This document shows positions 268-31,672 of a DNA stretch of 64,000 nucleotides, piece after piece. Numbering within the stretch: the stretch's first letter is position 1; each line of letters begins with the position of its first letter. The notes beneath the pieces are model-generated. The model made no database searches. It worked only from the letters and a program-made list of their open reading frames with translations, and was not told the DNA's origin. A program made the position numbers and the translations under genes. The stretch is from a virus: positions 64,001 through 128,000 of IMG/VR virus record IMGVR_UViG_3300027917_000021; one strand, given 5' to 3'.

Positions 268-688
268 ACAAAGTAAAGCAGAAAGTAAAAAACAACAAAG
301 ATTCATGGGCATGGTTCATGCTGTGCAAAAAGGAGAATTATCTCCTAAAGAAGTTGGACCAGCAGTTCGTAAAGCTGCCCGTGAAATGAAATATAAAGAT
401 GCGAAAGACTTCGCAGAAACAAGCCACAAAGGATTACCAGAAAAAAAAGGGTCAGTACAAATGAAGTATTTTGAGAAAACAGCTTTCAAACCTATGGAGG
501 CATTAAAAAACATATTTAGTAAAGGACCTGGTACAGCTATGGTAAAAGCAGCCCCAACAGCAGTTATGACACAAGCCCCAAAAGCCCAACAAAAAGTAAA
601 ACGCTTGTTTGATGCAAGGGCTCTTGCCTCTGCAGGCATAGGCGGTGCTGCAGCAGGCTATGGTTTAGGATCAATTGGTAGCGAATAA
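260..688 (+). CDS. Hypothetical protein: small basic N-domain fused to an internal MKYFEKTA leader and a Gly-rich tail
   Basis: In-frame ATG at 461 encodes MKYFEKTA; C-terminus ALASAGIGGAAAGYGLG. Confidence 0.7.
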   Translation: MYKQSKAESKKQQRFMGMVHAVQKGELSPKEVGPAVRKAAREMKYKDAKDFAETSHKGLPEKKGSVQMKYFEKTAFKPMEALKNIFSKGPGTAMVKAAPTAVMTQAPKAQQKVKRLFDARALASAGIGGAAAGYGLGSIGSE

Positions 689-820
689 TAAAATATTTTA
701 TAAAAAACACATCCTAAAAGATTTGTTAAAGGAATCTTGGGACTAGGCACTGGTTTAGCCATCGCAGGATATGGGCTCAGTGGAGGAAGTATTAAAAATA
801 AAAATAAGGAAAAATTATAA
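688..820 (+). pseudogene. Decayed MKYFEK-leader gene
   Basis: ATA AAA TAT TTT ATA AAA (IKYFIK) overlaps the previous stop like intact TAATG junctions; after a +1 shift it reads THPKRFVKGILGLGTGLAIAGYGLSGGSIKNKNKEKL* to 820. Confidence 0.5.
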
Positions 821-822
821 AA

Positions 823-1239
823 ATGAAATATTTTGAGAAATTAGCCAAAGAAGACCCGGGATATTTTGGAAAACAAATGGCTGCAACACGAGCATCGAGA
901 ATTCATGATTCTGCGGCCGGGACATTAGTTGCAGATCCGAAATTGATTAAGAAAAGATTTGAAAAAGCAATTACATATGGTGTTCCAGCAGCTATAGGAG
1001 GTGCCGGAGTAGGAGCTTTAGTAGGAAAAATGAAGGGATATACAGGTTTCGGAGCAGCAGCTGGTGCTATATTAGCAGGTTATGGCGGTGAAGTAGCCGG
1101 CATACTGAAAGCAGACAAAGAATATTTAGCTAAAAAAGGAATTGAATTATCAGCATTTGGAAACGTCAAGAAAATGACTCCAGAGGCAAAAAAGAAATAT
1201 TTACACGAGAAATACCGCGGCGGCGGTTATAAAGGATAG
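823..1239 (+). CDS. MKYFEK-leader protein with Gly-zipper hydrophobic segments
   Basis: MKYFEKLA start; AAIGGAGVGALVG and GFGAAAGAILAG. Confidence 0.8.
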   Translation: MKYFEKLAKEDPGYFGKQMAATRASRIHDSAAGTLVADPKLIKKRFEKAITYGVPAAIGGAGVGALVGKMKGYTGFGAAAGAILAGYGGEVAGILKADKEYLAKKGIELSAFGNVKKMTPEAKKKYLHEKYRGGGYKG

Positions 1240-1249
1240 GAAAATAAAA

Positions 1250-1660
1250 ATGAAGTATTTTGAAAAAATAGCTATATCAAAAGAAGAAGAACAAACTTAC
1301 AAAAGAGCCCCATATAGGCTAGTGCCTTATGTAGGGCCATATTTAGGGACTCCAAAAGGTATGAGAAAAGAACATCCTTGGGTTTCGGCTCTATGGGGAC
1401 CCCCGGGGTCATTTGGTGCAAAATCAAAAGATACTGGAAAATCTTATTTAGAAGAAGCAGTTAAAACTGAAGCAGCAGTTCAAACTGGTATTGGTGCCGT
1501 AGCAGGCACTGTAGCAGGCGCTATGGCAGGAGCTAGAGGAAAACAATTAGCCAAAGTTATTGCTGCAGCTACAGGAATTGGTGCGGCCAGTGGGGCGGCC
1601 GGCGGTGCAATTGCTTACGGCGGTGGAAAATTATTTGCTGGGCAAAAGAAAAAAAAATAA
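1250..1660 (+). CDS. MKYFEK-leader protein with Gly-zipper hydrophobic segments
   Basis: MKYFEKIA start; GIGAVAGTVAGAMAG and GIGAASGAAGGAIAYG. Confidence 0.8.
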   Translation: MKYFEKIAISKEEEQTYKRAPYRLVPYVGPYLGTPKGMRKEHPWVSALWGPPGSFGAKSKDTGKSYLEEAVKTEAAVQTGIGAVAGTVAGAMAGARGKQLAKVIAAATGIGAASGAAGGAIAYGGGKLFAGQKKKK

Positions 1661-1698
1661 TGAAATATAATGAAATATAATGAAATATAATGAAATAT
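1660..1698 (+). repeat. 10-bp tandem repeat ATGAAATATA, almost 4 copies
   Basis: ATG at 1660, 1670, 1680 and 1690; only the last opens the ORF. Confidence 0.9.
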
Positions 1699-2394
1699 TT
1701 TGAAAAAAATGCTGCATCTGGTTCCATAGGTCTTTGGCCAGTTCCTAAAAATCTTGCAGGGGCGGCAATAGGAGCTACTATTTTTGGCCTTTCTGGATAT
1801 TCAGATGCAGATAAGGATAATAAATGGACATCTACAGCCAGTTCTGCATTATTAGGAGGAGTATTAGGCGCCGGAGCACAAGGTGCAGCAAGAGCAATGA
1901 AAAAATCTTTTAAGACGTCATTAAAAATGACAAAAAACATGTCAAAAAAAGACAATCCATTGGGCCAATATTTGTCAGAAGGCGTTGATCCTGCTGTAGA
2001 AAAAAGCAAGCGAGTGATGGACAAATTAAAACGTCAGGAAGACAAAATTAGGTCTCATAAAGCTAGCAAAAGTGGTTTTATGTATGAAGATGCAGTAAAA
2101 TATGTTAGGGAAAAGAAGGCTGCTACATTTAGAGTTTCTGAAAAAGATTTAACAAACAAAGAACTTCAACATGAGTTGAGAAGACCATATTTTGAAGGAT
2201 CTTTGCAGAATATGGCTTTTGGTGGAACATTTGGTGCAACCGCTTCTTTGCTTAATAAAGGAAAATCATACGGAAAAAATCTTCTAACTGGTGTTGCGGC
2301 TGGACTCATAGCAACTCCTATAGTTAATGCGTTAGATAAAAAAGACATATTAAAAGAAGTAGATCGCAGAAAGAAACACAAAGGTTATAGATAG
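1690..2394 (+). CDS. MKYFEK-leader protein with several Gly-zipper segments
   Basis: MKYFEKNA start; LAGAAIGATIFG, LLGGVLGAGA, FGGTFGA, LTGVAAGLIA. Confidence 0.8.
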   Translation: MKYFEKNAASGSIGLWPVPKNLAGAAIGATIFGLSGYSDADKDNKWTSTASSALLGGVLGAGAQGAARAMKKSFKTSLKMTKNMSKKDNPLGQYLSEGVDPAVEKSKRVMDKLKRQEDKIRSHKASKSGFMYEDAVKYVREKKAATFRVSEKDLTNKELQHELRRPYFEGSLQNMAFGGTFGATASLLNKGKSYGKNLLTGVAAGLIATPIVNALDKKDILKEVDRRKKHKGYR

Positions 2395-2666
2395 TGAAAT
2401 ACTTTGAAAAAATATCAGAGTATAAAGAGTGGGATGATAGACACGCATTCACAGAAAATATACCGGGAGGTGCTGCTATCGGAGCTTTCGTTGGTCCAAT
2501 AGCTGCTAAATTACAAGCACAATTAATAAATCGTAAATTAAAAGCTATAGAAGAAATTAAACCATTTAAACCCGCCTTAATTAGAGCGAGCATTATTGGT
2601 GGTTTATTAGGGTCCATTGTTGGAGCTGGTAAATATGTCTATGAAAAAGAATACTACACAAAATAA
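2394..2666 (+). CDS. MKYFEK-leader membrane-like small protein (GTG start)
   Basis: MKYFEKIS; GGAAIGAFVG and IIGGLLGSIVG. Confidence 0.75.
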   Translation: MKYFEKISEYKEWDDRHAFTENIPGGAAIGAFVGPIAAKLQAQLINRKLKAIEEIKPFKPALIRASIIGGLLGSIVGAGKYVYEKEYYTK

Positions 2667-3075
2667 ACCTAAATATTACCACTATGGTTATCGTTATATT
2701 AAACCACAGGATGAGCCTGAAGACTGGGATTATGCCATTCAGATGCATAAAAATCAAAATGGCACCCACTTTGATTTTAGATTAGCGAAGCCAGGACATG
2801 ATTATGCTTATTCCTGGGCATCACGCAAGCCACCTCTTAATATTACATCTCCTATTTTAACCCGCCGAACACATGATCATACTATAGAGCATATGGATTT
2901 TGAAGGTCCTCTTGAAACAGCAAGAGGCACGGGCACTGTGCAATTGCTTAAAAGGGGCAAAACTAAATTGCATTCTATAGATGATAAAGGTATTAAGTTT
3001 AAACTTGATACTGGTGAATTTTTACTTTTAACAAATGTTAAAGGTAAAAAATATATTCTAACAACTCCAACCTAA
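2617..3075 (+). CDS. Stand-alone LigD-type 3'-phosphoesterase (PE) domain; true start probably ATG 2635 or 2641
   Basis: YAIQMH...HFDFRL...SWA...THDHTIEHMDFEG...GTGTV matches the LigD PE motifs (QxH, HxDxRL, SWA, DH, FxG). Confidence 0.75.
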   Translation: MLELVNMSMKKNTTQNKPKYYHYGYRYIKPQDEPEDWDYAIQMHKNQNGTHFDFRLAKPGHDYAYSWASRKPPLNITSPILTRRTHDHTIEHMDFEGPLETARGTGTVQLLKRGKTKLHSIDDKGIKFKLDTGEFLLLTNVKGKKYILTTPT

Positions 3076-6420: not shown

Positions 6421-6834
6421 ATGAAATACTTTGAAAAATTGTCAGGTTTTGGTGATTTTACTAGAAAAATGTTTAGTTATCATGACCTAGATAAAATGTC
6501 GGAAGAAACAAAAATACCTAAAAAATATTTAGAATATCAGTATCATAATACCCGTGTTCCAAATTCTTTTTTGTATTCATATGACAATGCTAAAAAAGAT
6601 ATGACAAAACTTTATAATTTAAGAAAAACATATGAAACTACCAGAGCACCACTACTTAAACTTAAAGAAGGATCAAAAGAAGACAAAGCCTTTTTAAAAA
6701 AGAATAAAAAAACTTTAGATAGTCAATTATTGGCCTGGGCAACGTACGGTAAGGGATTGCAAGAAAAATATCATAAGATAAAAAATCAACCGTCAGGTAC
6801 AATAGATTACAAAAAAAATTTAAAGAATAAATGA
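6421..6834 (+). CDS. MKYFEK-leader basic protein
   Basis: MKYFEKLS start. Confidence 0.75.
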   Translation: MKYFEKLSGFGDFTRKMFSYHDLDKMSEETKIPKKYLEYQYHNTRVPNSFLYSYDNAKKDMTKLYNLRKTYETTRAPLLKLKEGSKEDKAFLKKNKKTLDSQLLAWATYGKGLQEKYHKIKNQPSGTIDYKKNLKNK

Positions 6835-7241
6835 AATATTTTAAAAAGTTAGCTGCCGGGCCACCTGTTATTTTTAAAGTCCACCCAAAGAATCCAGAGG
6901 TAAAAGGAGCTTATATAATGCCTCGAAGAGAATGGGAAGTTTATCGTATTACACAAGATGAGGCTTTAGCAAATAAAGTTAGGAAAAAGGGGGCAATTCT
7001 TATAAATCCGGCAATAAAAGATCCAGAGCATATAAAGAAAATTAAACGTCATGAGTTGGTCCATTATTTACGACATAAAAACCGTCAGTGGTCGTCTATG
7101 AATTATGGTGCACTTCCCGGGGCACGTTTTGTTGAAGAAACGGCAGCATACGGGAAAGTACATGGAAGCAAAATAAAAGGCATGTTACATGCTATGAAAT
7201 CATCAAAACCTATAAGAGCAGTAGGAAAATTATTACATTGA
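6831..7241 (+). CDS. MKYFKK-leader HExxH (zincin-like) protein, paralog of 8593..9081
   Basis: MKYFKKLAAGP; KRHELVHYLR, WSS, VEETAAYG. Confidence 0.7.
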   Translation: MKYFKKLAAGPPVIFKVHPKNPEVKGAYIMPRREWEVYRITQDEALANKVRKKGAILINPAIKDPEHIKKIKRHELVHYLRHKNRQWSSMNYGALPGARFVEETAAYGKVHGSKIKGMLHAMKSSKPIRAVGKLLH

Positions 7242-8593
7242 GATACTTCGAAAAAAATGCCGATATTGTAAGAGAGTATAAAGATAGTCCAAAAGGATTG
7301 TTATATATTGCTCCAACTGGCTCTGGCAAAACTAAAAAAATATTAGAAGCTACTAGAAATGATCAGGCTGTTGCCATTACTCCAGCGTCAATAACAAAAA
7401 ATCTAGATAAAGAAGAACGTAAATTTTTTAATACACGTTCTTCAAGAAAATCTTTTACGTATGCTAAATTATCTCGTGGTGTTGATCTTCCGGAAAGAAA
7501 ACATTTGATATTGGACGAATCTCACAATATAAAAAATCCTAAGACAAAAACTTTTCAGAATATAGCATTACAAAGATGGAAGTTTGACAAAGCACTTTTA
7601 GCAACAGCAACGCCGATGTATAATGAACCATACGATATTGTATCCCAGGTGAATCTTGTTGCCAATCAAAAAGTTCTTCCAATGAATAAAAAAGATTTTT
7701 ACAAAAAATTTTATACGGAAGTTCAAAACGATCCTGGGCTAGTTGGACGTTTATTAGGAATTAAAGGTGCTAAAGAAAGAGTTTTAAAAGATCCAAAGCA
7801 TGTTCGCTCATTATTAGATAAGCATACTTATGTAGTCAGTGGTAATAAAGTAGAAAAACTTTTACCAAAGAAAGATGAAGAAATTGTTAAAGTTCCGATG
7901 TCAAAGAATCAGCAGGAACTTTATAAATACGTAAGTAAAAAATTGCCTTTTTATTTAAAATACAAAATACAAAGGAATCTTCCTCCAACTAAAACAGAAC
8001 AGAAAGACTTAAATAGATATTTGATGGGAGTAAGACAGGTTTCTAATACAACTCGTGGGTATAGTAGTACTCCTGAAAGTCCCAAATTTGAAAAAATGGT
8101 AGCTGACGCAAGAACAGAATTAAAGGCTGGAGGAAAAGTATTAATGTATTCAAACTTTAGAGAATCTGGAGTTGATGCATTATCAAAACGTTTAGAAAAC
8201 TTAAAAATTCCACATGGCAAGATCGTTGGAAGTATGACCAAAAAACAAAGGGCAGAAGAAGTATCAAAATATACAAGCAACAAAAATAAAGTATTACTAT
8301 ACAGTGGGGCCGGATCAGAAGGATTAAATTTACCAAAAACAACTTTGGTACAAATAGCAGAACCTTTTTGGAACAAATCAAGAATAGAACAAGCAGAAGC
8401 AAGAGGAATACGTAGAGGTGATGATCCCAAAAGAACTGTAAAAGTTAAAAAATACTTGTCAGTATTTCCGGAAGAGAAAAATATATTTGGTAAGAAGAAA
8501 CAAAAACGTGCTGTGGATGAGTATCTGGTAGAAATGTCAAATAGAAAAAACAAAGAAATAAAACAACTGCTTGAGGCAATAAAGGACGAGTAA
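7238..8593 (+). CDS. SNF2-like SF2 helicase/translocase with MRYFEKNA leader (TTG start)
   Basis: APTGSGKT, ILDESH, ATATP, EGLNL, QAEARGIR. Confidence 0.85.
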   Translation: MRYFEKNADIVREYKDSPKGLLYIAPTGSGKTKKILEATRNDQAVAITPASITKNLDKEERKFFNTRSSRKSFTYAKLSRGVDLPERKHLILDESHNIKNPKTKTFQNIALQRWKFDKALLATATPMYNEPYDIVSQVNLVANQKVLPMNKKDFYKKFYTEVQNDPGLVGRLLGIKGAKERVLKDPKHVRSLLDKHTYVVSGNKVEKLLPKKDEEIVKVPMSKNQQELYKYVSKKLPFYLKYKIQRNLPPTKTEQKDLNRYLMGVRQVSNTTRGYSSTPESPKFEKMVADARTELKAGGKVLMYSNFRESGVDALSKRLENLKIPHGKIVGSMTKKQRAEEVSKYTSNKNKVLLYSGAGSEGLNLPKTTLVQIAEPFWNKSRIEQAEARGIRRGDDPKRTVKVKKYLSVFPEEKNIFGKKKQKRAVDEYLVEMSNRKNKEIKQLLEAIKDE

Positions 8594-9081
8594 TGAAATA
8601 TTTTGAAAAACAGGCAGCAGGGCCACACGTAGTGTATGATACTATACCAAAAGAATTTGGGAATCTAAGAGGTGGATATTTATCAGACAAGTATATTAAG
8701 TATGTCCCAAAAAAATGGCAGGAAAGTACAAAAAAGAAAAAAGGACTTGTCATGATAAGTAAACCTATTCATGATCAGTTAATAAACAAATATGAATCAG
8801 ATCTTATAATACAAGGACTGCCAAAGCCAGTCATTGAAAAAGAAACGAAAAGATACGGAAATAAAATTATACAAAATACAAAAAGACATGAATTAGTGCA
8901 TCATTTACGTGCACAAAAAGGCAAATGGTCTAGTATAGAGACTGGCAAAAACCCAATTAAAAGAATAGTAGAAGAAACTGCGGCACATGGGAGAGTGGCA
9001 GGAAATAAATGGAAAGGGTTTAAAGAAGCCACAGAACTACATGCTCCAAAAATATACAAAATTATAAAAAAATTAATATGA
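8593..9081 (+). CDS. MKYFEK-leader HExxH protein, paralog of 6831..7241
   Basis: MKYFEKQAAGP; KRHELVHHLR, WSS, VEETAAHG. Confidence 0.7.
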   Translation: MKYFEKQAAGPHVVYDTIPKEFGNLRGGYLSDKYIKYVPKKWQESTKKKKGLVMISKPIHDQLINKYESDLIIQGLPKPVIEKETKRYGNKIIQNTKRHELVHHLRAQKGKWSSIETGKNPIKRIVEETAAHGRVAGNKWKGFKEATELHAPKIYKIIKKLI

Positions 9082-9557: not shown

Positions 9558-10517
9558 ATGACAAACGAGCAAATCGAATACTTCGGAAAAGAAGCGGCTA
9601 AAACATACCTTGAAGAAGGCACTGAATTAAATGAAACAATTACAAAAATAGCAGAAGAACACGCTCTTAACCGATATGAAATCGAAAGAATAGTAGAAGC
9701 GGCAAACACTAATACTTATTTATCTATGTTTAGTAATTTAGATGATAAATATATAGAATTTCCAGTAGCAGATGTTGAAAAAATAGCAGAAGCTTTATCG
9801 CCTATTGTGGAAGATGATCCGTATTATGATTATGATGAGCCGCCTGAAAAAGAATTAGAAGAAGTACAAATTTTTCCAGTTGAGGGTGCTGAGAAGACAT
9901 CCTCCGTTGCAGAAGAAAACAAGTTTTCTTCTGAAAATCTTCAATTCCGTCAGCGTGCTAAGTATGCAGAACAACAATTGATAGAAAGAATATCTCTAGC
10001 TGAGAATGCTTTTTCGGAGGAAACAGAGAATCTTTATCAAATGGTAAAACAAGCGGTGCTATCTGGTACCCGCTTCGGGCATATCAAAGCCGCGATGGAA
10101 CAGTACTCTCCTGGAAAATTTGTAGAAAAATTTGCTGAGTATACAAAAGAAAGATTAAAAAAAGAAGATCTTAGACTTGATCTTTCTGATTGTGAAGAAA
10201 AACTTGGTACAGTAAATAAAAATAATGAAATTATGAAGCAGCTTGATAAGATTGCAAATATTTATGGTGAAGCTGCTGTGTATAATGAAAAACTTGCAGC
10301 TTTTGGTTTAGATGTTGTCCGCCGCCTAGGTTCCGGTGCAATGAATTTTGGAAGAGGTGCTTTACGGTTCGCGGATACACACTCACGTACGGCATTATTT
10401 GGAACTGCAGCCGCAGGAGCTGTTGGTAGTGGTATAGCATATAAAGCAGGAAAAACAAAAGCTGAATATGAATTGTCTGCCATCCGAAACATACCACAAA
10501 AATATCAGAAGAGGTAA
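9558..10517 (+). CDS. Putative prohead core/scaffold-like protein, KxA-rich, with Gly-rich C-tail
   Basis: YFGKEAA, TKIA, EKIA, EKFA, DKIA, EKLAA; C-terminal TALFGTAAAGAVGSGIAY. Confidence 0.6.
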   Translation: MTNEQIEYFGKEAAKTYLEEGTELNETITKIAEEHALNRYEIERIVEAANTNTYLSMFSNLDDKYIEFPVADVEKIAEALSPIVEDDPYYDYDEPPEKELEEVQIFPVEGAEKTSSVAEENKFSSENLQFRQRAKYAEQQLIERISLAENAFSEETENLYQMVKQAVLSGTRFGHIKAAMEQYSPGKFVEKFAEYTKERLKKEDLRLDLSDCEEKLGTVNKNNEIMKQLDKIANIYGEAAVYNEKLAAFGLDVVRRLGSGAMNFGRGALRFADTHSRTALFGTAAAGAVGSGIAYKAGKTKAEYELSAIRNIPQKYQKR

Positions 10518-10520
10518 TGA

Positions 10521-11159
10521 ATGAAAAATGTGGAGCGAATAATCCGCCTTTATAAAGATGGAAAAATAGATGACACAACCATGGTTAAGATGGCAGTATT
10601 CAAAGAAAAGGTTGCAGAACTGATTAAAGAAAGTGGGCCCGGCGGTTTAACAAAAAATCAAGTATTGATGGCAGCTGCAATCTCTGCTGGTATTGGTTTG
10701 GGAAGTCAGGCTATTGAAAGTTTATCTAATTACTTTATAACAACGCGTGCAAAAAAACAATTAGATGAAACAACCGAGAAAATATTTGAAGATATTTATA
10801 ATTCACCGGAAGTAAAATCCTTTCCACGTGAAGTTGCGGAACAATATTTTAATACATTGAAACATTTTTCACCACATGTTGCCTCTGATCCATTAGCTGC
10901 AAAAACTTATTTATTGCAAATGCTCAAATGGTCAGATGAATATTCCGCTCCTATATCTACTATGACTGTAAGAGATTTAGCAGAAGTAGAAAATAAAGCT
11001 ATGGATGCTTTAAATAAAAGACCACTAGCAGGACCAGATATTGGTAAATTTACAGCACCAATTGTGGAGAGCATACAAAAAGCACCAAAAAACTTGTATA
11101 CGGAAATAAAAGAAACGCCACAGTCACTTCAAACAAGTATGTTTAACGAATATGATTAA
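10521..11159 (+). CDS. Putative head-associated protein with a hydrophobic segment
   Basis: VKMA, EKVA; VLMAAAISAGIGLG. Confidence 0.55.
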   Translation: MKNVERIIRLYKDGKIDDTTMVKMAVFKEKVAELIKESGPGGLTKNQVLMAAAISAGIGLGSQAIESLSNYFITTRAKKQLDETTEKIFEDIYNSPEVKSFPREVAEQYFNTLKHFSPHVASDPLAAKTYLLQMLKWSDEYSAPISTMTVRDLAEVENKAMDALNKRPLAGPDIGKFTAPIVESIQKAPKNLYTEIKETPQSLQTSMFNEYD

Positions 11160-12891
11160 ATATTTAGATTATTATCCAGGCGATAAAGGCGTTGAAATTT
11201 CTCTGATACATCCTGGTGTAATGGAGAAAACAGCCGAATATCATCCGGAACTACAAGAATTTTTACAAGTTTTAAAACCAGACCCAAAAAGATACTTTCT
11301 TTTAGTCAATGCATTAGGTGCAGGCGAATATTATGGCAGTAATCGCAATGGTGATTATTTCCCTGAACCTGCTTTGGTTGAATATCATAAGACCTTTGAA
11401 ACACTTGGAAAAGTATTTAGACATCACAAAAATAAACCTCAATTAGGCCATCGTGTTTATGGTGAAATTCTTTATTCTCATTATAATCCTAAAATGCACA
11501 GAGTAGAATTGGTTATTGGGCTTGATGTTGGTGCAGCACCAGATCTAAAAGAAAGAATTGATCGTGGTGAATTTCCACCAATTTCTATGGGATCGAAAGT
11601 TCCTTATGATGAATGTTCTATTTGTGGTAATAAAGCACCAAGAATACAGGATTATTGTGAACACGCAAAAACAATGATGAATCATGTTATGCCTGATGGT
11701 CGTAAAGTTTATGTTATTAATCGCAAACCTAAGTTTTTTGATATCAGCTTCGTTCATGTGCCGGCCGATCGTACAGCATATACTTTACGAAAAGTTGCTG
11801 AATACGTAGAAGAGGAACCATCGGCTATTAAAACTGCAAAAGCATTAAAACAGGCTGGCATTAAAGAATCAACCATCGTAAAAATCATAGATGGTCAAGT
11901 TGACTATGCCGGGCCAGATCCAAGCCGTCTTATTGTAGAATCACAGCCTAATATGTCAAAAAGGCTGATTAATGATTTGGCACATTCAGCCCCATTAAAT
12001 GAAGTACTAAGTACTCTCGTAGCTACAAGAGTTATGCCTAAAAAAGCAGAATTTCAAAGATTAATATTAACTGCAAAAGGCCAAGAAAAATTAGCAGAAG
12101 AACTTGAGAGAGAAAAAGTTTGTTTTATTATACATGATGATATTGAACCGGTTATTCCGAATGATGTGAATATTCATCAGTTCAACCAAAAAACAGCAGA
12201 AGTATTACGTTCTTATCCAGAATATTTTGAAAGAGCGCCATTAACTAAACCGGTTGTCATGGCCCGGATACTTGAGAAATATGCATTTTTAGATACTGGC
12301 CATCAAAAAGGCAGTCCAATGGAACAAGCAGGAGTAATCCCTCCTTTAAAAGATATGCCTGACGACAAACAAAATACTCATGGAGAAGAACAGCCTATTA
12401 TATCCCCTATAAAAAACCCACTAATACCTCTTACAGCAATAGGCGGTTTATATTTAGGTGTTTCAAAACTTATGAATTCTTTTGGTGCTGCAGAAGGACT
12501 AAAAGCATTATTGGCAAATAATCCGTGGTTGCTTCCTATACTTATAGGAGGAGCAACTATTGGTAGCATGGAAATGCAAAAGCGATTATTTGAAAAAACT
12601 GCTTCCGGAGTTGGATTTTTAGGAAGTATGTTATTAAGTGTTCCGGCCACTTATCTTTATGCCGGTTTTCAGGAAAACAAAGTAAGGCAAGGCAGACCAA
12701 TAGGCTCTTATTCTAACTTTGTTAGAAAGAATCCTCTATTGGCAAGCATTGGCCATGGTTTTCTTGGCAGTAAGACAACAAAATTGTTGTCTAAAGTAGG
12801 AGAAGCAAAAGGCAAACTTTTTGATGCTTCTCTTCAATTAGATGAACAAAAATTTAATAATATTTATAATATTGTTATACATGGTAATTAG
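11152..12891 (+). CDS. Prohead maturation protease (assemblin/HK97-type) with long C-terminal extension
   Basis: NRNGDYF, FRHH, ISMGSKVPYDECSICG, FFDISFVHVPAD; lies upstream of scaffold and capsid genes. Confidence 0.75.
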   Translation: MIKYLDYYPGDKGVEISLIHPGVMEKTAEYHPELQEFLQVLKPDPKRYFLLVNALGAGEYYGSNRNGDYFPEPALVEYHKTFETLGKVFRHHKNKPQLGHRVYGEILYSHYNPKMHRVELVIGLDVGAAPDLKERIDRGEFPPISMGSKVPYDECSICGNKAPRIQDYCEHAKTMMNHVMPDGRKVYVINRKPKFFDISFVHVPADRTAYTLRKVAEYVEEEPSAIKTAKALKQAGIKESTIVKIIDGQVDYAGPDPSRLIVESQPNMSKRLINDLAHSAPLNEVLSTLVATRVMPKKAEFQRLILTAKGQEKLAEELEREKVCFIIHDDIEPVIPNDVNIHQFNQKTAEVLRSYPEYFERAPLTKPVVMARILEKYAFLDTGHQKGSPMEQAGVIPPLKDMPDDKQNTHGEEQPIISPIKNPLIPLTAIGGLYLGVSKLMNSFGAAEGLKALLANNPWLLPILIGGATIGSMEMQKRLFEKTASGVGFLGSMLLSVPATYLYAGFQENKVRQGRPIGSYSNFVRKNPLLASIGHGFLGSKTTKLLSKVGEAKGKLFDASLQLDEQKFNNIYNIVIHGN

Positions 12892-12894
12892 GTA

Positions 12895-12923: not shown

Positions 12924-12964
12924 TAAACTGATTTCCATTTAATTTTAAACGGAGGAAAATATAA

Positions 12965-13546
12965 ATGGCTAAAGAAGGATTTAACCTTGAATCTTTTCTA
13001 AAAACTTTAGAAGATGACAAGGAAAAAACAGCTGAAGAAAAAGTAGAAGAACCAGTAGAAGAGCCTACTGAAGAACCTACTGAAGAACCTACTGAAGAAG
13101 AACCAGCAGAAGAAACAAAAACTGCTGAAAATCTCGAAAGAGAAAAAGTAGCTGAGCTGGTGGAAGAAGGCCAAATCATGGCTCGCGCTTTCCACGAAGA
13201 ATTAACAAAACTTGCTGTTGGTGATGGACCTTATACACCAAATCCAGCAGCTATAAAAGAGCCTAACGAAGTTAGCCACATGAGTGTTGGTGACATTAAA
13301 ATGGACCAAACAGCCAAAGTGGAAGCTCTTTTAAATCAAATTCAAGCTGCTGTACGTAGTGGTGGCGGAGACATGACATTTACGTTTAATCCTGGTGGGT
13401 CACAACCGGTAGTACCAGATGAAACCGTACTTCCTGCAGATGCTGCATCAGCACAAAAATCTCAAGCAGCCGCTGCAAGCATGAATAAAGCTGCAGCCGC
13501 AAAAATCATTGATAATCTTTACAAGAAAGTATTTGGAGAAGAATAA
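12965..13546 (+). CDS. Acidic scaffold-like head protein
   Basis: EKTA, KTA, EKVA, TKLA, NKAA; [VT]EEP repeats; GGAGG RBS. Confidence 0.65.
   Translation: MAKEGFNLESFLKTLEDDKEKTAEEKVEEPVEEPTEEPTEEPTEEEPAEETKTAENLEREKVAELVEEGQIMARAFHEELTKLAVGDGPYTPNPAAIKEPNEVSHMSVGDIKMDQTAKVEALLNQIQAAVRSGGGDMTFTFNPGGSQPVVPDETVLPADAASAQKSQAAAASMNKAAAAKIIDNLYKKVFGEE
13043..13105 (+). repeat. 12-bp in-frame tandem repeat encoding [VT]EEP
   Basis: gtagaagaacca gtagaagagcct actgaagaacct actgaagaacct actgaagaa. Confidence 0.85.
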
Positions 13547-13839
13547 TGGGACTTTTAGAAACTTACGAAGCCATGCAAAAAGAGGCAGCGGTTGCGGAAG
13601 TTGAAGCCCAACGTCGCGAAATGTTGACGAAATATGCTTCTGCCGCTGAAGAACTTCTTGAGAATGAATATGGCGATGATTATAATGCTGATGATGTAGA
13701 ACTATTAGCTGAGAAATTAATTGAAGCTGATGTAGAGGCTATGGAACAGCAAGAAAAAGTTGCTGAATATGAAGAAGCCGGCAAAATAATGGCACAAGCT
13801 TTTATTAAAGAGCTTAAAGAAAAAAAATCCGAAAAATAA
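13546..13839 (+). CDS. Acidic scaffold-like protein, paralogous to its neighbours
   Basis: EKVAEYEEAGKIMAQAF resembles EKVAELVEEGQIMARAF in 12965..13546. Confidence 0.65.
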   Translation: MGLLETYEAMQKEAAVAEVEAQRREMLTKYASAAEELLENEYGDDYNADDVELLAEKLIEADVEAMEQQEKVAEYEEAGKIMAQAFIKELKEKKSEK

Positions 13840-14292
13840 ATGAACATACAAAGAATACAGTTTCTGGAAAAATATGCTGCCCGAGCTGAAAATCTTTTGT
13901 CACAAAAATTCGGAAAAAATTATACGCCAGAAGATGTAGAGAAACTTGCTGAAGCATTGATACGCCTGGACGTTAAGCGGGCAGCGAATATCGATCGTGT
14001 TGAAGAATTAGTCAAACAGGCACAATATACAGCAAACGCTTTTGTAAAAGAAATAAACAAAGAATTGGGAGAAGATGCTTTTGCTAAATTAGCGAAAGCA
14101 CCTTTTCTTGATGCTTTAAAGCTATTAGTAAAAGGTAAAGGATCCGAGTTCAGCCAAAAACTTATAGGAGCCTTAAAAAATACCGGCCAAAGAACGATGA
14201 AATTTGTAAAAACAGATCCTTATTTGGCTGCCGGATTTGCCGGAGCTGGTGGTGCAACTGCTCTTACTGGCCATGCTTTATTATCGGATTAA
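13840..14292 (+). CDS. Scaffold-like protein with Gly-rich C-tail
   Basis: LEKYAARAENLL...NYTPEDVEKLAE is paralogous to 13546..13839; tail YLAAGFAGAGGATAL. Confidence 0.65.
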   Translation: MNIQRIQFLEKYAARAENLLSQKFGKNYTPEDVEKLAEALIRLDVKRAANIDRVEELVKQAQYTANAFVKEINKELGEDAFAKLAKAPFLDALKLLVKGKGSEFSQKLIGALKNTGQRTMKFVKTDPYLAAGFAGAGGATALTGHALLSD

Positions 14293-14298
14293 ACGCGA

Positions 14299-14778
14299 AT
14301 GATTAGTTTGAGAAACTTGTTAAAAGACATAGAAGCATCTGAACAAGAGAAGCATGCCGAACAAAGTCCGGAAATTACTATTGACGATTTACGTAATACA
14401 GCAAAATCTCTTGAAAAATTAGCTTCGCCTGATCGTGAGATTGATGTGATAGCTAAATTAGCAGTTCTTATGGATATGGGTCTTACCAAAGAAGCAGCCG
14501 ATATAGTTACAAAGGCTAAAAAATATCTTTGGAAAGTAAAAGATGCAAACAGGGCTGCAAAAATAATGGAAGAAGCGGGAAATATAGAGAAGGAAACAAA
14601 GAGAATCCAAGAAGGTAAAACTCTTGCTAAATATAAATGGCCTGCTATTGCAACCGCTGGTACAGTAGGTGGTTTGTATTTAGGTTCACAAATATCTGAA
14701 AAAAACAAAAAAGATGAACTTAAAAACGTTGCTCGTAAATACTTCTCTCTTGGCCGACAATCCGCAGGAGGAGCATAA
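14299..14778 (+). CDS. Head-associated protein with KxA sites and hydrophobic tail
   Basis: EKHA, EKLA, AKLA, TKEA; WPAIATAGTVGGLYLG. Confidence 0.6.
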   Translation: MISLRNLLKDIEASEQEKHAEQSPEITIDDLRNTAKSLEKLASPDREIDVIAKLAVLMDMGLTKEAADIVTKAKKYLWKVKDANRAAKIMEEAGNIEKETKRIQEGKTLAKYKWPAIATAGTVGGLYLGSQISEKNKKDELKNVARKYFSLGRQSAGGA

Positions 14779-15122
14779 TGAGTTTTGAAAAAACAGCTCA
14801 AGAACACTATAATTTTTTACTAGAAGAATATGAAAAATCACACGGTGCAGAAGAACGTGAGAAGCTCGCAATGACCGTAGTTACCAAAATGGTAGAGCGC
14901 GCAGATCTCACAGAGCCCGGTGAGGTTTTAGAAAAGTTGGCAGAACTTCGCCAACAAACAACAGAGGACTTAAAAATTCTCGAAAAAGCGGTCGAGTTGG
15001 GTAGAATTCCTGGGGGTGAGGGACCCACAAAAACAGCGTCAGCTTCGCTGGGTTCCCTAGCGGAGATCCCAAGCGGAGATGACCAGGATAATCTAACAAA
15101 ATTTCTACTCGAAGATTATTAA
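14778..15122 (+). CDS. Scaffold-like protein
   Basis: MSFEKTA, EKLA twice, KTAS; GGAG RBS. Confidence 0.65.
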   Translation: MSFEKTAQEHYNFLLEEYEKSHGAEEREKLAMTVVTKMVERADLTEPGEVLEKLAELRQQTTEDLKILEKAVELGRIPGGEGPTKTASASLGSLAEIPSGDDQDNLTKFLLEDY

Positions 15123-15621: not shown

Positions 15622-16542
15622 ATGGCTGATGTTCCTGCTAATGTAATTAACGAATTGTTCGTTTCTAAGCTGGATCAACCTGAAGGTCGCGAAAAGCTGG
15701 CTGCTGAAGGCTCTGCCTTCATTCGTACAAAGCTGCGTGAAGTATCCTTTGCACGTAAAATCATCAACCCAGTGTATGTGACCAAAGCTGATCTACAAAG
15801 ATCCGTACAACATGACGGTTTGGTAAAAATCGTCGATATTGAGCCTGATTCTGCAGCAATGGCTATCAACTTCCGTGGTGGAGCTGATACCCGTTACGTA
15901 GAAGGCGAACGCTACGAGATTCCTTTCTTCATGATTACTTCTGAAGATTTTCAGAAAACTGAAGAGGAACTGTTAGCGTATGAAATGCCGATTACAGACG
16001 TTATCGAAAGAAACTCTGTAAAAGACATCCAAGAAATTGAAGATAGTGCATTCATTACTCGTGTCAACGCAGCAATTGCAGTGTCTGGAAAATCAAATGT
16101 TGCTGTAACTACTTCTGGTGGTTATATTGACAAAACAGTTTTTGCGACATTGTTTAACCTGCTTGAAGCCGGTGGTGGCACAGTAGATCGTCTAAAAACA
16201 GAAGTTGTTCTTATGAACAACCAAGATTATAATGATCTATTACTATGGGAAGCCAACAGTGTAGGCGACCAAGTTGGTGCAGAAATCACTGTCAATGGTT
16301 ATACGTATGCAACTCTTTTTGGTAAGAGACTTATTGTAACCAATAAAGCAGATTTAGTTCCTGCAAAAACTATTTATGCCTTTGCAGCACAAGAGTTCTT
16401 AGGAAACTTTTTTATCCTGAACGATACACGGTTCTGGATTGACAAGAAAAAGAACCTGGTAACATGGAGTGCATATGAAAGCATTGGTATGGGTATCGGA
16501 AATATCCGTGCAGTTGCATCTGTTACTTGGACAAGCGCGTAA
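15622..16542 (+). CDS. Major capsid protein (HK97/encapsulin-like fold)
   Basis: 306 aa; FIRTKLREVSFARKII, DIQEIED, YESIGMGIGN; strong RBS, followed by a terminator; follows protease and scaffold genes. Confidence 0.8.
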   Translation: MADVPANVINELFVSKLDQPEGREKLAAEGSAFIRTKLREVSFARKIINPVYVTKADLQRSVQHDGLVKIVDIEPDSAAMAINFRGGADTRYVEGERYEIPFFMITSEDFQKTEEELLAYEMPITDVIERNSVKDIQEIEDSAFITRVNAAIAVSGKSNVAVTTSGGYIDKTVFATLFNLLEAGGGTVDRLKTEVVLMNNQDYNDLLLWEANSVGDQVGAEITVNGYTYATLFGKRLIVTNKADLVPAKTIYAFAAQEFLGNFFILNDTRFWIDKKKNLVTWSAYESIGMGIGNIRAVASVTWTSA

Positions 16543-28776: not shown

Positions 28777-28779
28777 TAA

Positions 28780-31269
28780 ATGATTACATTAGAAAATGTT
28801 ACAGTAGATACTTTAGGACTGGGCAACAGAAGAATACAATGGGAAGTAGTTCCGACACACGAAGATCTTAACCTATTTTTGTTGGATGTATATCGTGCGG
28901 AAGCTCCCGGGGCATTGTCAGAATTTGACCTGGTTGTATCAGGTTTATCTGTTCTCGATGGTACGTATATTGATAGTGGACTGCAAAGAATGGATTATTC
29001 TACAAACCGACAGATATACTATTACCTAAATGTATTAGACACAGGTACCGCGGAAACATCACTCGAAGGTCCATATGTGATGGAATCTGAGCCGGATTAT
29101 GCTTCTAATGAAATACTTCGTCGCTATGGCATTTTCTTTGACAATCCACGCTATCAGGTTCGTACATTTTATGTATTAAAGAAACGTACCTGGGGAAATC
29201 AATGCTCATGCATCGATGATGTAACACAGGAACCTAGAAACGAAAATTGTACTATATGCTATGGTACAGGTATAGTAGGCGGTTATTTTAATCCAATTGC
29301 TGTTCGAGGAATGCGTTCAGACAAGCCAAGTCGCCAAATGATAAACCTGTTTGGAGCATGGCAGGACACTAATGTATTTTTCAAACTGGAAAATACCGTT
29401 AAGGTAATTCCCGGTGATTATATTGTCGACGAACATAATGAAAGATATCTGATCGAAGGGCCTGTAAATCACCTACAAAAGGGTATTTATACCTTGATGA
29501 GTAATGTTCGTGCCAAAACTGTGTCAAAATCAGATCCGATATATCGGTATGGTATGATTGAAGAACTTGGTGGAACCGAGGAAGAGATTATTATAAGCGG
29601 TAATGAAATAGCGGTATTTAATGGGACATCCTCCTATATGGAAATTATAGACAATGATTTATTGTCTTTTTTAAATGGGTCGTTTAGTATTACTGGATGG
29701 TTTGAATTAAATAATGCTCCTCCCGGACCATCAATTTCAGAAACAATAAGTCAAACGGTTTGCGATGATGAAGGTTTATATGAAGCAGAATCCATTACTT
29801 TATCAAATGGCAATGTTTTTATGGCATATTCAGATTACACAAATATTTATGCTTCCTACAACATTATTACACAAAGTGGAACTGAAGTAACTGGTCCAAT
29901 AGTATTGGAAAACACTATGGGCAGTGTATTTAGTGTTACCCAATTAACCAATAATAATATATTTATATGTTATGCATCAGGACCAGACAGTTCAAAACCT
30001 GCCAAGTATGCCTTAGTAGATGAATCTGGAACTTTGCTGGCTGGTCCCATAGCAGTCCCAGGAATTACATATTCCAATTATTTTGGTTGCACTAAAACAA
30101 ATAATGGAAATATTTTTGTAGTATATTCAGACCCCGATGATGGAAATAAAGGGAAATTTATAATTTTAGATAATTCAATTAATTTAATTTTTGGCCCAAC
30201 TACCTTCCATTCCAATGTAACATATTATCAGAGAGTATCTTTATTACAAAATGGTAATATATTTTTAAGTTATTCTAACCAATCGGATAATCGTGGAGAA
30301 TTTGTAATTTATTCTCAAGCCGGAGCACTTATTAAATCTGCTACTATTTTTGAAACAAATCCTGTTTATGATTTATGGAGTTCAATATTAGTAGGAGGAA
30401 ATATAATTATAGTATATGGAACTACATCAGATTCATCTGGTAAATTTACCATATATGATGAAAACGGAAATATAATAAAAACCCCAACTACCTTTGAATC
30501 AGGAGGAGCATCTTATTATAATTCTGTAGCGCCTACATTAGATGATCGAGCTGTTATAGTATATCAAAATCCTTCTAGTTATTATACATCATGTGTAATA
30601 GTTGATAGTGAAGGAACCATAACACAAAGTTCTTTTAATATTAATACTAATGAAACTTATGATTCACATATAACTCTGCTTGGAAATGGAAATGTAATGA
30701 TACTTTATGATGTGTATGATGGAGTAGATACGGCAATTTTACAAGTTTATGATGTAATAGGACAATATCAACCACTATTAGTGAAAGACGATAAATCATT
30801 GAATCATGAATGGATATTAGTATATGATAATTCAGGCAACATACATATTCGCATAATTGGTTCAAACAATAATTTTATAGGTAAATATTATAATTATCCA
30901 ATAAATGGAGAACTTCATCATTATGCAATTACATATAATGGTAATAATTCCTCAGACGGAATTAATTTATATATAGATAATAATTTAGTTCAGTCAATAC
31001 CAAATAATTTAGGAATATATACACCACCAATTAATACAAGTTTAAATGTGTTTATTGGAAAATGGGCAAATTCTTTTTTTGCTGGAAAAGCACGAGATAT
31101 TAAAATATTTAATAAGGCATTATCAAGTGCAGATATAAATCAAGAATATGCCCTGGGAAATTATAGAGTTGGAATAGTTGCAAATTACAAATTACACGAA
31201 GACACAAATGATTATGGAAGATATAGTTTACACGGTATAAACACAGATATAATATTTACACAGGAATAA
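28780..31269 (+). CDS. Neck/head-closure-like N-domain plus beta-propeller repeats plus LamG domain
   Basis: CSC...CTICYGTGIVGGYF; LxNGNxFxxY repeats; LHHYAIT...LYID...IKIFNKALS. Confidence 0.6.
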   Translation: MITLENVTVDTLGLGNRRIQWEVVPTHEDLNLFLLDVYRAEAPGALSEFDLVVSGLSVLDGTYIDSGLQRMDYSTNRQIYYYLNVLDTGTAETSLEGPYVMESEPDYASNEILRRYGIFFDNPRYQVRTFYVLKKRTWGNQCSCIDDVTQEPRNENCTICYGTGIVGGYFNPIAVRGMRSDKPSRQMINLFGAWQDTNVFFKLENTVKVIPGDYIVDEHNERYLIEGPVNHLQKGIYTLMSNVRAKTVSKSDPIYRYGMIEELGGTEEEIIISGNEIAVFNGTSSYMEIIDNDLLSFLNGSFSITGWFELNNAPPGPSISETISQTVCDDEGLYEAESITLSNGNVFMAYSDYTNIYASYNIITQSGTEVTGPIVLENTMGSVFSVTQLTNNNIFICYASGPDSSKPAKYALVDESGTLLAGPIAVPGITYSNYFGCTKTNNGNIFVVYSDPDDGNKGKFIILDNSINLIFGPTTFHSNVTYYQRVSLLQNGNIFLSYSNQSDNRGEFVIYSQAGALIKSATIFETNPVYDLWSSILVGGNIIIVYGTTSDSSGKFTIYDENGNIIKTPTTFESGGASYYNSVAPTLDDRAVIVYQNPSSYYTSCVIVDSEGTITQSSFNINTNETYDSHITLLGNGNVMILYDVYDGVDTAILQVYDVIGQYQPLLVKDDKSLNHEWILVYDNSGNIHIRIIGSNNNFIGKYYNYPINGELHHYAITYNGNNSSDGINLYIDNNLVQSIPNNLGIYTPPINTSLNVFIGKWANSFFAGKARDIKIFNKALSSADINQEYALGNYRVGIVANYKLHEDTNDYGRYSLHGINTDIIFTQE

Positions 31270-31273
31270 ATCA

Positions 31274-31672
31274 ATGAAATATTTTGAAAAAAATGCAGAT
31301 ATACAATATGCCTTGAAAGGAATGGTCAAGGGATTTAAAGCTGGAACAATGGATTTAGCTACCGCAGCAGATAGAATTAAGAGGTTAGCTGAAAGAAAAA
31401 AGAATTTAATGCAATATATAGACTTAAATCCAAATGTATTTGATCAAAATCCTGCCATGGTAGATAAAGTACATCGTTATTCTAAAATGCTTGTTGGAAG
31501 TAATATGTTATATAATAAAAGGCAGGTTGACCTACTTAAGTTAGGTGCAGCACCAGTGCATCCTATGCAAGGCACACTGCTGAATGTGCAAACAAGAGAA
31601 TCACAAACAAAATACAACTCTAAAGTTTTAGGTAAAAAAAGAGCTGACATTTTAGTACCACTATGGCGTTAA
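31274..31672 (+). CDS. MKYFEK-leader protein
   Basis: MKYFEKNA start, 22 kb from the nearest other copy. Confidence 0.75.
   Translation: MKYFEKNADIQYALKGMVKGFKAGTMDLATAADRIKRLAERKKNLMQYIDLNPNVFDQNPAMVDKVHRYSKMLVGSNMLYNKRQVDLLKLGAAPVHPMQGTLLNVQTRESQTKYNSKVLGKKRADILVPLWR

What the first reader, a model, noticed from the sequence alone, without database searches (positions are those of the whole stretch)
461..31672. Shared MKYFEKxA N-terminal leader on mostly unrelated proteins: candidate capsid-targeting and cleavage tag
Seen: M[KR]YF[EK]Kx[AS] begins ORFs at 823, 1250, 1690, 2394, 6421, 6831, 7238, 8593, 9078 and 31274, and occurs internally at 461. Apart from one paralog pair and shared Gly-rich composition, the bodies are unrelated (Gly-zipper proteins, SNF2 helicase, HExxH pair, HD-like protein). 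Nucleotide differences between copies are mostly synonymous (AAA/AAG, TAT/TAC, GAA/GAG, ATG/GTG/TTG), so selection acts on the peptide. All copies lie in the virion arm. Known: T4 internal proteins share a ~10-aa capsid-targeting sequence that the prohead protease removes. Inference: this is an analogous modular tag that loads a cargo set into the prohead, is cut after KxA, and delivers the cargo with the DNA.
Basis: partly seen in the sequence, partly recalled or inferred. Interest (0 to 1): 0.9.

Follow-up and report, generated by a model that had tools for sequence, protein, structure and literature searches.

The report
Shared capsid-loading tag on phage proteins
Eleven mostly unrelated, strongly basic proteins of this uncultured 156-kb phage carry the same 8-residue tag, which matches the motif its head-maturation protease most likely cuts, so the tag probably marks proteins packed into the capsid and delivered with the DNA, although packaging and cutting are not yet shown.

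Summary
M[KR]YF[EK]Kx[AS] occurs 11 times in the window (0 expected) and nowhere else in the 155,895-bp genome. Ten copies start ORFs; one is internal. Conservation stops at codon 8, and most differences are synonymous.

Four new points:
- The tag core, hydrophobic-x-K-x-A/S, is a head-specific code. It is 3-4 times over-represented in head-core proteins here and in cultured phages Arash and D181, but not in tail proteins.
- Conserved copies flank the catalytic domain of a T4 gp21/herpes-assemblin-fold protease and sit in the capsid protein N-arm.
- In relatives the tag lines up with internal junctions of fused proteins, as a cleavage site would.
- The tag belongs to a wide family. A sister phage has at least 17 MKYFTKxA genes, and 105 ORFs in IMG/VR start M(x)NKYLEKIA. 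Tagged genes cluster around the protease gene and are about 90% basic.

Best reading (0.65): a T4-CTS-like capsid-loading and cleavage tag in an unrelated phage lineage. Packaging, the exact cut and ejection are inferred. It is a new variant of a known kind. This scan has noted similar shared leaders on other phage DNA.

The parts
260..688 (+). DUF3008 protein with an internal tag (MKYFEKTA, nt 461-484) followed by a Gly-rich basic tail
   Evidence: The orthologue L001:3130-3669 keeps the internal tag and has it in tandem (MKYFEKNP-IKYFEKDA-GLFEKILK).
823..1239 (+). tagged ORF, 138 aa, Gly/Ala-rich; pI 9.8 without the tag
1250..1660 (+). tagged ORF, 136 aa, Gly/Ala-rich, pI 10.0
1690..2394 (+). 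tagged ORF, 234 aa, pI 10.0
2394..2666 (+). tagged ORF, 90 aa, GTG start, pI 9.2
   Evidence: Orthologue L001:3978-4250 (52% identity).
6421..6834 (+). tagged ORF, 137 aa, function unknown, pI 9.8
   Evidence: Weak relative in G002.
6831..7241 (+). tagged HExxH protein, 136 aa, paralogue of 8593
   Evidence: Fused to the helicase in L001:11550-13397.
7238..8593 (+). tagged SNF2-family helicase, 451 aa, TTG start overlapping the stop of 6831
   Evidence: Pfam SNF2-rel_dom and Helicase_C. Homologue of Arash Gp217 (E 3e-62). Its tag aligns with a fusion junction in relatives.
8593..9081 (+). tagged HExxH protein, 162 aa
9078..9491 (+). tagged DUF5662 protein, 137 aa
   Evidence: Pfam. Its tag aligns with an internal SLEKTA site of L001:14136-14720.
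31274..31672 (+). tagged ORF, 132 aa, between tail genes and a PAS-GGDEF gene
   Evidence: Tagged orthologue in G001.
9558..10517 (+). conserved head protein (Arash Gp220-like) with the tag-like N-terminus ...EYFGKEAA and five further h-x-K-x-A sites
11152..12891 (+). prohead protease with a gp21/assemblin-fold domain (residues about 41-217). It has K-x-A sites at residues 26-28, 214-216 and 482-485 (RLFEKTAS).
12965..15122 (+). five small acidic scaffold-like genes dense in h-x-K-x-A. ORF 14778 starts MSFEKTA; ORF 13840 has QFLEKYA at residues 8-14.
15622..16542 (+). major capsid protein, with a conserved K-x-A (REKLAA, residues 23-28) at the base of the N-arm

Best explanation
The 8-residue leader M-[KR]-Y-F-[EK]-K-x-[AS] is a capsid-targeting and cleavage tag. 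It is analogous to the T4 capsid targeting sequence but not homologous to it.

Proposed mechanism:
1. Late in infection the phage makes a set of very basic proteins with this tag. They include an SNF2 helicase, two HExxH proteins, a DUF5662 protein, a DUF3008 fusion and several Gly-rich small proteins.
2. The tag presents the same hydrophobic-x-K-x-Ala/Ser element that fills the scaffold-like proteins, flanks the catalytic domain of the prohead protease and sits in the capsid protein N-arm.
3. The tag is recognised inside the assembling prohead, and the gp21/assemblin-fold protease (11152-12891) removes it, most likely just after the Ala/Ser.
4. The basic mature proteins stay with the packed DNA and enter the host with it.

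Shown: the motif, its peptide-level conservation, its head-specific distribution, its internal equivalents at domain junctions, the protease fold, co-occurrence and clustering with the protease gene, and the basic cargo.

Inferred: binding or loading, the scissile bond, and ejection.
For: 1. There are 11 copies against 0 expected, and none elsewhere in the genome. Conservation is limited to codons 1-8 and differences are mostly synonymous.

2. h-x-K-x-[AS] is specific to head-core proteins.
- In the nine head-core proteins 9558-16542, none of which carries the tag, it occurs 25 times against 8.0 expected (z 6.5).
- Eight rearranged control motifs give z between -2.2 and +2.0. Tail proteins and the rest of the genome are at expectation.
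- The same holds in cultured relatives: Arash 35 against 9.1 and D181 40 against 11.2 (z 9.2 each).

3. In 21 protease homologues of 37-88% identity, K26 and A28 are invariant and K214 and A216 are at least 90% conserved. A C-terminal [LFM]-x-x-K-x-[AS] site reads RLFEKTAS here. In the AlphaFold model the first and third sites lie in low-confidence segments; the second is followed closely by one.

4. The protease domain matches T4 gp21 (Z 9.4, rmsd 2.9 A, 129 residues) and herpesvirus assemblins (Z 6-8.5).

5. The capsid protein N-arm keeps K-x-A in 53 of 54 distinct homologues.

6. The tag is equivalent to internal junction sites.
- The helicase tag aligns with LKKFIKRA or IKKHIKKTA in HExxH-helicase fusions.
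- The DUF5662 tag aligns with an internal SLEKTA.
- The DUF3008 protein keeps an internal copy, which is tandem in its orthologue.
- Helicase orthologues without a tag start 1-3 residues after the tag position.

7. The tag forms a family.
- Relative G002 has at least 17 MKYF[T/E/K]Kx[AS] ORFs.
- 105 distinct ORFs start M(x)NKYLEKIA.
- Five of five complete genomes with that tag encode this protease family.
- 29 of 32 tag copies lie within 15 kb of the protease gene in genomes of 168-193 kb.

8. The cargo is basic: 11 of 11 here (pI 9.2-10.3; genome median 6.9), 17 of 17 in G002 (pI 9.4-12.0), and 90% of 97 NKYLEKIA ORFs against 30% of neighbouring ORFs.

9. Arash Gp217, the homologue of the tagged helicase, gave 38 peptides and 1148 spectra in purified virions (PMC10585845).

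10. Precedent: the T4 CTS is the only conserved part of diverse internal proteins and loads foreign proteins into the head (PMC3012670).
Against: - There is no direct evidence of packaging, cleavage or ejection for any tagged protein, and no phage with this tag is cultured.
- Arash Gp217 lacks the tag yet was found in virions. Either the tag is not the only route in, or that proteome (116 proteins) includes contaminants.
- Many helicase orthologues in phages of the same protease family have no tag.
- In relative G001 three tagged genes sit beside homologues of genes of unknown function at 20-24 kb of this genome, not beside head genes.
- Position 5 of the tag (E here, T in G002) does not co-vary with the protease's own sites.
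- Part of the K-x-A density in scaffold proteins could be structural rather than sites that are actually cut.
Confidence: 0.65

Rival explanations
1. The leader is only a protease substrate site, a propeptide. The prohead protease trims it, for example to hold the enzymes inactive until they are inside the head, but it plays no part in getting the proteins into the prohead. Loading depends on the basic bodies or on other contacts.
For: All the evidence that ties the core motif to the protease fits this reading equally well. Arash packages a tag-less helicase homologue. Internal junction copies need cleavage, not targeting.
Against: A bare cleavage site needs only h-x-K-x-A. Yet the whole M-K-Y-F/L-E-K-x-A is conserved across 100+ unrelated ORFs and distant lineages, which suggests more than the minimal site is read. 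An 8-residue propeptide is unlikely to block enzymes with such different folds.
Confidence: 0.15
2. The leader is a docking peptide that is not cleaved. It binds scaffold, portal or the inner capsid surface and stays on the mature protein.
For: Head-proximal location and basic cargo. The exact tag is longer than the core motif.
Against: The tag shares its core with sites that flank the protease domain and with inter-domain junctions of fused orthologues. That is the pattern expected of cleavage sites.
Confidence: 0.09
3. The tag is read by some other partner: a modifying enzyme, the HExxH peptidase, a chaperone, or a membrane or secretion pathway (many cargo proteins have Gly-zipper segments).
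For: HExxH proteins are themselves tagged and are fused to the helicase in relatives. Zincin-like peptidases are proposed to process polyvalent proteins (PMC5512222).
Against: No HExxH homologue was found in 0 of 5 complete genomes that carry the sister tag, while 5 of 5 have the protease. The core motif is enriched only in head-core proteins. The tag has no hydrophobic signal-peptide character.
Confidence: 0.08
4. The conservation acts on the nucleotides or on translation: an initiation-enhancing start region, or a 24-bp recombination site for shuffling gene cassettes.
For: The sequence is AT-rich, has AAA as second codon, and lies at gene starts. The gene sets differ between relatives.
Against: Differences are mostly synonymous and the flanks are not conserved. 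ATG, GTG and TTG starts are all used. The motif recurs internally at homologous positions. Distant lineages keep the peptide with different codons.
Confidence: 0.03

Closest known systems
T4 capsid targeting sequence (CTS, MKTYQEFIAE) of internal proteins IPI-III, removed by the gp21 prohead protease (Mullaney and Black 1996; reviewed in PMC3012670)
   Same: A short N-terminal peptide is the only shared part of diverse, fast-evolving, basic proteins encoded with the head genes. The phage has a gp21-fold protease. The peptide carries the motif that recurs in scaffold and capsid proteins.
   Different: There is no sequence similarity. The motif ends in Ala/Ser after a Lys, not in Glu. The phage lineage is unrelated (terminase at most 30% identical to any cultured phage). 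The sets are larger, at 11 to about 20 genes per genome. The cargo includes enzymes such as an SNF2 helicase. The same element also works as an internal junction in fused proteins. Function is not demonstrated.
Herpesvirus assemblin release and maturation sites ((V/L/I)-x-Ala|Ser; my own knowledge of the family)
   Same: The catalytic fold is shared (Z 6-8.5). Conserved sites with a small residue (Ala) lie directly after the catalytic domain and near the C-terminus, often followed by Ser (KVAS, KTAS).
   Different: An invariant Lys lies two residues before the Ala. There is an extra site before the catalytic domain. Cleavage after Ala is inferred, not shown.
Polyvalent proteins of phages and conjugative elements (Iyer et al. 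2017, PMC5512222)
   Same: The domain repertoire (SWI2/SNF2 ATPase, HExxH protein), the position in the head module and the predicted delivery with the DNA all match. A close relative has HExxH and SNF2 in one polypeptide.
   Different: Here the modules are mostly separate genes, each with its own tag, so the arrangement is an unbundled version. The HExxH protein is not recognised as a zincin by Pfam.
Propeptides of phiKZ/SPN3US ejection proteins cut by gp175/gp245 (PMC10052503), and the P1 Dar proteins
   Same: Many internal head proteins are processed by one prohead protease at a short motif, and anti-host enzymes are packaged.
   Different: Those propeptides are long and dissimilar to each other. 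Here a single, nearly identical 8-residue leader is reused.

Membership tests
T4-type capsid targeting sequence (functional class) | One short N-terminal peptide shared by otherwise unrelated proteins of one phage | tested here: met
   11 copies. Only one related pair remains once the tag is removed.
T4-type capsid targeting sequence (functional class) | Tagged genes are encoded with the head-morphogenesis genes | tested here: met
   10 of 11 copies lie within 11 kb of the protease gene and none is in the other 125 kb. 29 of 32 copies lie within 15 kb in five complete genomes. Exception: three genes in G001.
T4-type capsid targeting sequence (functional class) | The phage encodes a gp21/assemblin-fold prohead protease | tested here: met
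   VIA-align Z 9.4 to 5jbl (T4 gp21) and Z 6-8.5 to herpes proteases. PHROG head maturation protease, E 4e-10.
T4-type capsid targeting sequence (functional class) | The tag ends in the cleavage motif of that protease | tested here: inconclusive
   The core h-x-K-x-A/S is head-specific (z 6.5-9.2) and conserved in the protease and capsid protein. No cleavage site has been determined experimentally in this family.
T4-type capsid targeting sequence (functional class) | The tag is sufficient for encapsidation and is absent from the mature virion protein | not testable with these tools
   Needs virion mass spectrometry or tag-reporter packaging.
T4 CTS (sequence family) | Sequence related to MKTYQEFIAE, ending in (L/I)-x-Glu | tested here: not met
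   By inspection the tag is MKYFEKxA and ends in Ala/Ser. It is an analogue, not a homologue.
Assemblin-type autoprocessing sites | Conserved small-residue sites directly after the catalytic domain and near the C-terminus | tested here: met
   K214/A216 are at least 90% conserved. The C-terminal K-x-[AS] is present in about 18 of 21 homologues and in the four proteases read from the NKYLEKIA-type genomes.
Assemblin-type autoprocessing sites | Hydrolysis of the Ala|Ser bond | not testable with these tools
   No biochemical data.
Polyvalent proteins | Two or more unrelated effector domains in one polypeptide | tested here: not met
   The genes in the window are single-module, apart from the DUF3008 + Gly-rich fusion. 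The relative L001:11550-13397 does fuse HExxH and SNF2.
Polyvalent proteins | Typical domains (SWI2/SNF2 ATPase, zincin-like peptidase) | tested here: inconclusive
   SNF2 is confirmed. The HExxH pair has no Pfam match even at E 1.

The most novel reading that the evidence does not exclude
The tag family K-Y-[FL]-x-K-x-A is a portable address code used by a whole clade of large uncultured phages (the protease family has over 2000 members). It would be read and cut after Ala by a gp21-fold protease with herpes-like rather than T4-like specificity. Scanning genomes for it would then list each phage's injected protein arsenal, here an unbundled set of polyvalent-protein modules. The 8 residues alone would load any protein into these capsids.
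Probability: 0.4. Interest if true: 0.75.

Novelty: new variant of a known kind. Interest (0 to 1): 0.62.

Why it matters
If the tag works as proposed, it is a sequence-only way to predict which proteins a large group of uncultured marine and sediment phages inject with their DNA. These are likely first-minute anti-defence and takeover factors, most of unknown function and turning over quickly between relatives.

It would also define the specificity (K-x-Ala) of a widespread prohead-protease family that bridges T4 gp21 and herpesvirus assemblin. It shows the same element serving both as a gene-start tag and as an inter-domain junction, which links separately tagged genes to polyvalent fusion proteins.

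The cultured relatives Arash and D181 share the head-specific K-x-A code, so the cleavage rule can be tested directly at the bench.

Tried and rejected
Relatives were therefore reached through IMG/VR pattern and profile scans only.
- Pfam and a PDB sequence search did not recognise the protease. Foldseek alone was weak (best gp21 E 0.036); the VIA second look gave the fold.
- The portal gene was not identified. tblastn with the Arash portal found nothing. PHROGs, Pfam and the ESM Atlas gave nothing for candidate large ORFs.
- I looked for co-variation between tag position 5 (E here, T in G002) and the protease or capsid sites. None was found; G002 keeps LEKTA and LEKVA.
- Family-wide enrichment of the core motif in the first 10 residues of called ORFs is 2.3-fold. 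Neighbouring control motifs with Lys are also raised (1.6-2.0-fold), so I give this little weight.
- Coverage figures in the Arash virion proteome cannot show N-terminal trimming, and no raw data are deposited.
- IMG/VR hits L004, L008 and L011 are the C-terminus (DTMKYFEKLAAS) of a gp32-like single-strand-binding protein of T4-like phages. L010 is a 28-codon ORF. I treat these as unrelated or chance hits.
- HExxH as the universal processing enzyme is rejected: 0 of 5 complete tag-bearing genomes have a homologue.
- No paper holds MKYFEK in a phage context, and none holds NKYLEKIA.
Full report
**Observation.** The window is bases 64,001-128,000 of a single 155,895-bp virus record. Ten copies are the first start codon of ORFs of 90-451 aa. 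The eleventh, at 461, is residue 68 of ORF 260-688, directly after a DUF3008 domain. A degenerate DNA pattern gives 11 matches against 0.00 in 100 shuffles, and the other roughly 92 kb of the genome outside the window has none.

The conservation is confined to codons 1-8, and neither flank is conserved. Differences inside the tag are mainly third-position A/G or T/C changes. Only four alter the residue, all conservatively, and ATG, GTG and TTG starts are all used. So selection acts on the peptide. With the tag removed, only 6831 and 8593 (the HExxH pair) are related.

**What surrounds it.** The + strand from 1 to about 39.3 kb is the virion arm:
- large terminase, 4866-6419;
- a 579-aa protein, 11152-12891, that hits a PHROG head maturation protease;
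- acidic scaffold-like genes;
- the major capsid protein, 15622-16542;
- the tail sheath, 37018-38628.

An AlphaFold model of the 579-aa protein, built from 21 homologues, has a folded domain at about residues 30-217. That domain aligns best with T4 gp21 (Z 9.4, rmsd 2.9 A, 129 residues) and then with a run of herpesvirus assemblins (Z 6-8.5). The protease family is very large: 2151 proteins at E below 1e-5. Its only cultured members at useful distance are Vibrio phages D181, D148 and D69, Salmonella phage Arash, Bacillus phage G and cluster C mycobacteriophages.

**The tag core is a head-specific code.**
- In the nine head-core proteins from 9558 to 16542, none of which carries the full tag, hydrophobic-x-K-x-[AS] occurs 25 times against 8.0 expected from within-protein shuffles (z 6.5).
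- Eight control motifs with the same residue classes in another order or spacing, or with one class changed, stay between z -2.2 and +2.0. Tail proteins and the rest of the genome are at expectation.
- The same holds in cultured Arash (35 against 9.1) and D181 (40 against 11.2), both z 9.2, with tails and controls flat.

The motif also sits at conserved positions:
- In the protease alignment K26 and A28 are invariant and K214 and A216 are at least 90% conserved. A third site near the C-terminus reads RLFEKTAS here, almost the tag itself.
- The sites bracket the catalytic domain. The first and third lie in low-confidence segments of the model, and the second is followed closely by one. They recur in four proteases read from genomes of the sister tag group.
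- This layout resembles the release and maturation sites of herpesvirus assemblin, which are cut after Ala (my own knowledge).
- The capsid protein keeps K-x-A about 25 residues from its N-terminus in 53 of 54 distinct homologues.
- The conserved Gp220-like head protein keeps [FLM]-[GA]-K-x-[AI]-[AS] near its start.

**The tag behaves like a junction as well as a start.**
- In the closest relative (contig IMGVR_UViG_3300037247_002101, terminase 84% identical) the helicase is fused behind an HExxH domain. The window's MRYFEKNADIVREYK aligns with the internal LKKFIKRAGLVEEYK.
- Other fused orthologues have IKKHIKKTAGLVEEYK. Stand-alone ones start MKYFEK[IT]AG.
- The DUF5662 tag aligns with an internal SLEKTA of a longer orthologue that carries its own tag at its start.
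- The DUF3008 protein keeps its internal copy in the relative, where it is triplicated.
- Helicase orthologues without a tag begin one to three residues after the tag position.

An element that can be internal or terminal, and always sits at a domain boundary, is what a processing site looks like. It excludes an explanation based on translation initiation.

**The tag is one form of a wide family.**
- An exact-pattern scan of IMG/VR finds MKYFEK at ORF starts in five further contigs.
- One of these, G002 (53 kb), has 16 pattern matches with 0 in the control. It has at least 17 ORFs starting MKYF[T/E/K]Kx[AS], including the helicase orthologue.
- More distant helicase orthologues (30-37% identity) start MNKYL[ETV]KIA. 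A scan for that form returns 67 stretches where I estimate about 0.7 by chance, with 105 distinct ORFs.
- All five complete genomes tested that carry it encode the same protease family (46-51% identity). None has an HExxH homologue.
- 29 of their 32 tag copies lie within 15 kb of the protease gene in genomes of 168-193 kb.

**The cargo.**
- All 11 tagged proteins here are basic (pI 9.2-10.3, net charge +3 to +40). The genome median is 6.9 and 38% of its proteins are above pI 9.
- All 17 in G002 are basic (pI 9.4-12.0). So are 90% of 97 NKYLEKIA proteins, against 30% of neighbouring ORFs. That suits proteins that share a capsid with densely packed DNA.
- Cargo sets differ strongly between relatives. 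Of 41 tagged proteins in four genomes, only a handful are orthologous. T-even internal protein loci also turn over quickly (PMC3012670).
- The helicase is a full-length homologue of Arash Gp217 (E 3e-62). Gp217 was among the most abundant proteins in purified Arash virions, with 38 peptides and 1148 spectra (PMC10585845).
- SNF2 ATPases and HExxH peptidases are the commonest modules of phage polyvalent proteins, which are predicted to be packaged and injected (PMC5512222).

**Limits.**
- Nothing here shows packaging, cleavage or ejection.
- Arash Gp217 has no tag, and many helicase orthologues lack one. The tag is therefore not the only way in, or not all orthologues are packaged.
- G001, a 169-kb contig from the same sample as contig 2101, is probably the rest of that phage: it has no protease, and its genes in the four stretches compared match this genome's (mostly 55-86% identity). 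Three of its tagged genes lie next to homologues of genes of unknown function at 20-24 kb of this genome.
- I could not find the portal gene.
- The exact scissile bond is unknown. A cut after Ala/Ser is suggested by three things: the sharp end of conservation at residue 8, the frequent Ser or Ala that follows in the protease sites, and the assemblin precedent.

**Comparison and verdict.** In function this is closest to the T4 capsid targeting sequence: one short leader, diverse basic cargo and a gp21-fold protease. It is not a sequence relative of the T4 tag, it ends in K-x-Ala rather than x-x-Glu, and it lies in an unrelated phage lineage. I file it as a new variant of a known kind.

Earlier notes of this scan describe comparable shared leaders, and K-x-A-rich head modules, on other phage DNA. 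I treated them as leads and re-tested the K-x-A claim myself. I found neither peptide in a phage context in the papers searched.

My confidence that the tag is a head-assembly targeting and cleavage signal is 0.65. The main alternative is that it is cut but does not itself do the targeting.

Noticed in passing
L080:3971-7198 and L080:8657-12772 (relative G002); also protease homologues P0015, P0016, P0020 and others: In relatives the large terminase (1075 aa) and the prohead protease (1371 aa) are interrupted by intein-like inserts. The protease appears to carry two. Many protease homologues carry LAGLIDADG or intein Pfam domains (PF14528, PF14890).
   Followed up: no
window 31663-32904 and L126:6100-7119 (genome 25,099-26,118): The phage encodes a PAS-PAS-GGDEF diguanylate cyclase (GGDEF E 5e-35) and, elsewhere, an HD_5 (HD-GYP-type) protein (E 2e-36). 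That is both halves of c-di-GMP turnover.
   Followed up: partly
window 2617-3075 and 32904-34250: There are two LigD_N (3'-phosphoesterase) domains: one free-standing next to the first tag cluster, one at the N-terminus of the DNA ligase. The same Pfam domain is fused to distant SNF2 helicase homologues (P0186, P0222).
   Followed up: no
window 9558-10517, 11152-12891, 13840-14292, 14299-14778, 36249-36998, and the tagged ORFs 461-2666: Many head-module proteins end in Gly/Ala-rich, zipper-like hydrophobic segments. The same is seen in small proteins of Arash and D181. Their role (membrane pore after ejection, or inner-capsid contacts) is unexplained.
   Followed up: no
L013:3252-7829 (Arash Gp206) and L014:7754-9298 (D181): The protein annotated in Arash as the RNA polymerase beta subunit (the most-detected virion protein in its proteome) and its D181 counterpart start MPKSAS and MPKKAS. 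That is a minimal M-x-K-x-A-S start resembling the tag core.
   Followed up: partly
L004:556-1449 (also L008, L011): A gp32-like single-strand-binding protein of T4-like contigs ends in DTMKYFEKLAAS. This is the tag sequence at a C-terminus, in an unrelated phage type. It is probably coincidence.
   Followed up: partly
L002/L007/L122-L125 (IMGVR_UViG_3300037247_001890) and L001/L015 (IMGVR_UViG_3300037247_002101): The 169-kb contig lacks terminase, protease and capsid genes, while the 36-kb contig from the same sample has them. Both resemble this genome closely, so they are probably two pieces of one phage of about 205 kb.
   Followed up: partly
L199:11578-13374 (Pseudanabaena phage PA-SR01): A homologous SNF2-type helicase (36% identity to a distant homologue, P0162, of the window's helicase) also sits inside the head module of an otherwise different cyanophage, between the capsid gene and a Mu-like protease I gene.
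   Followed up: no
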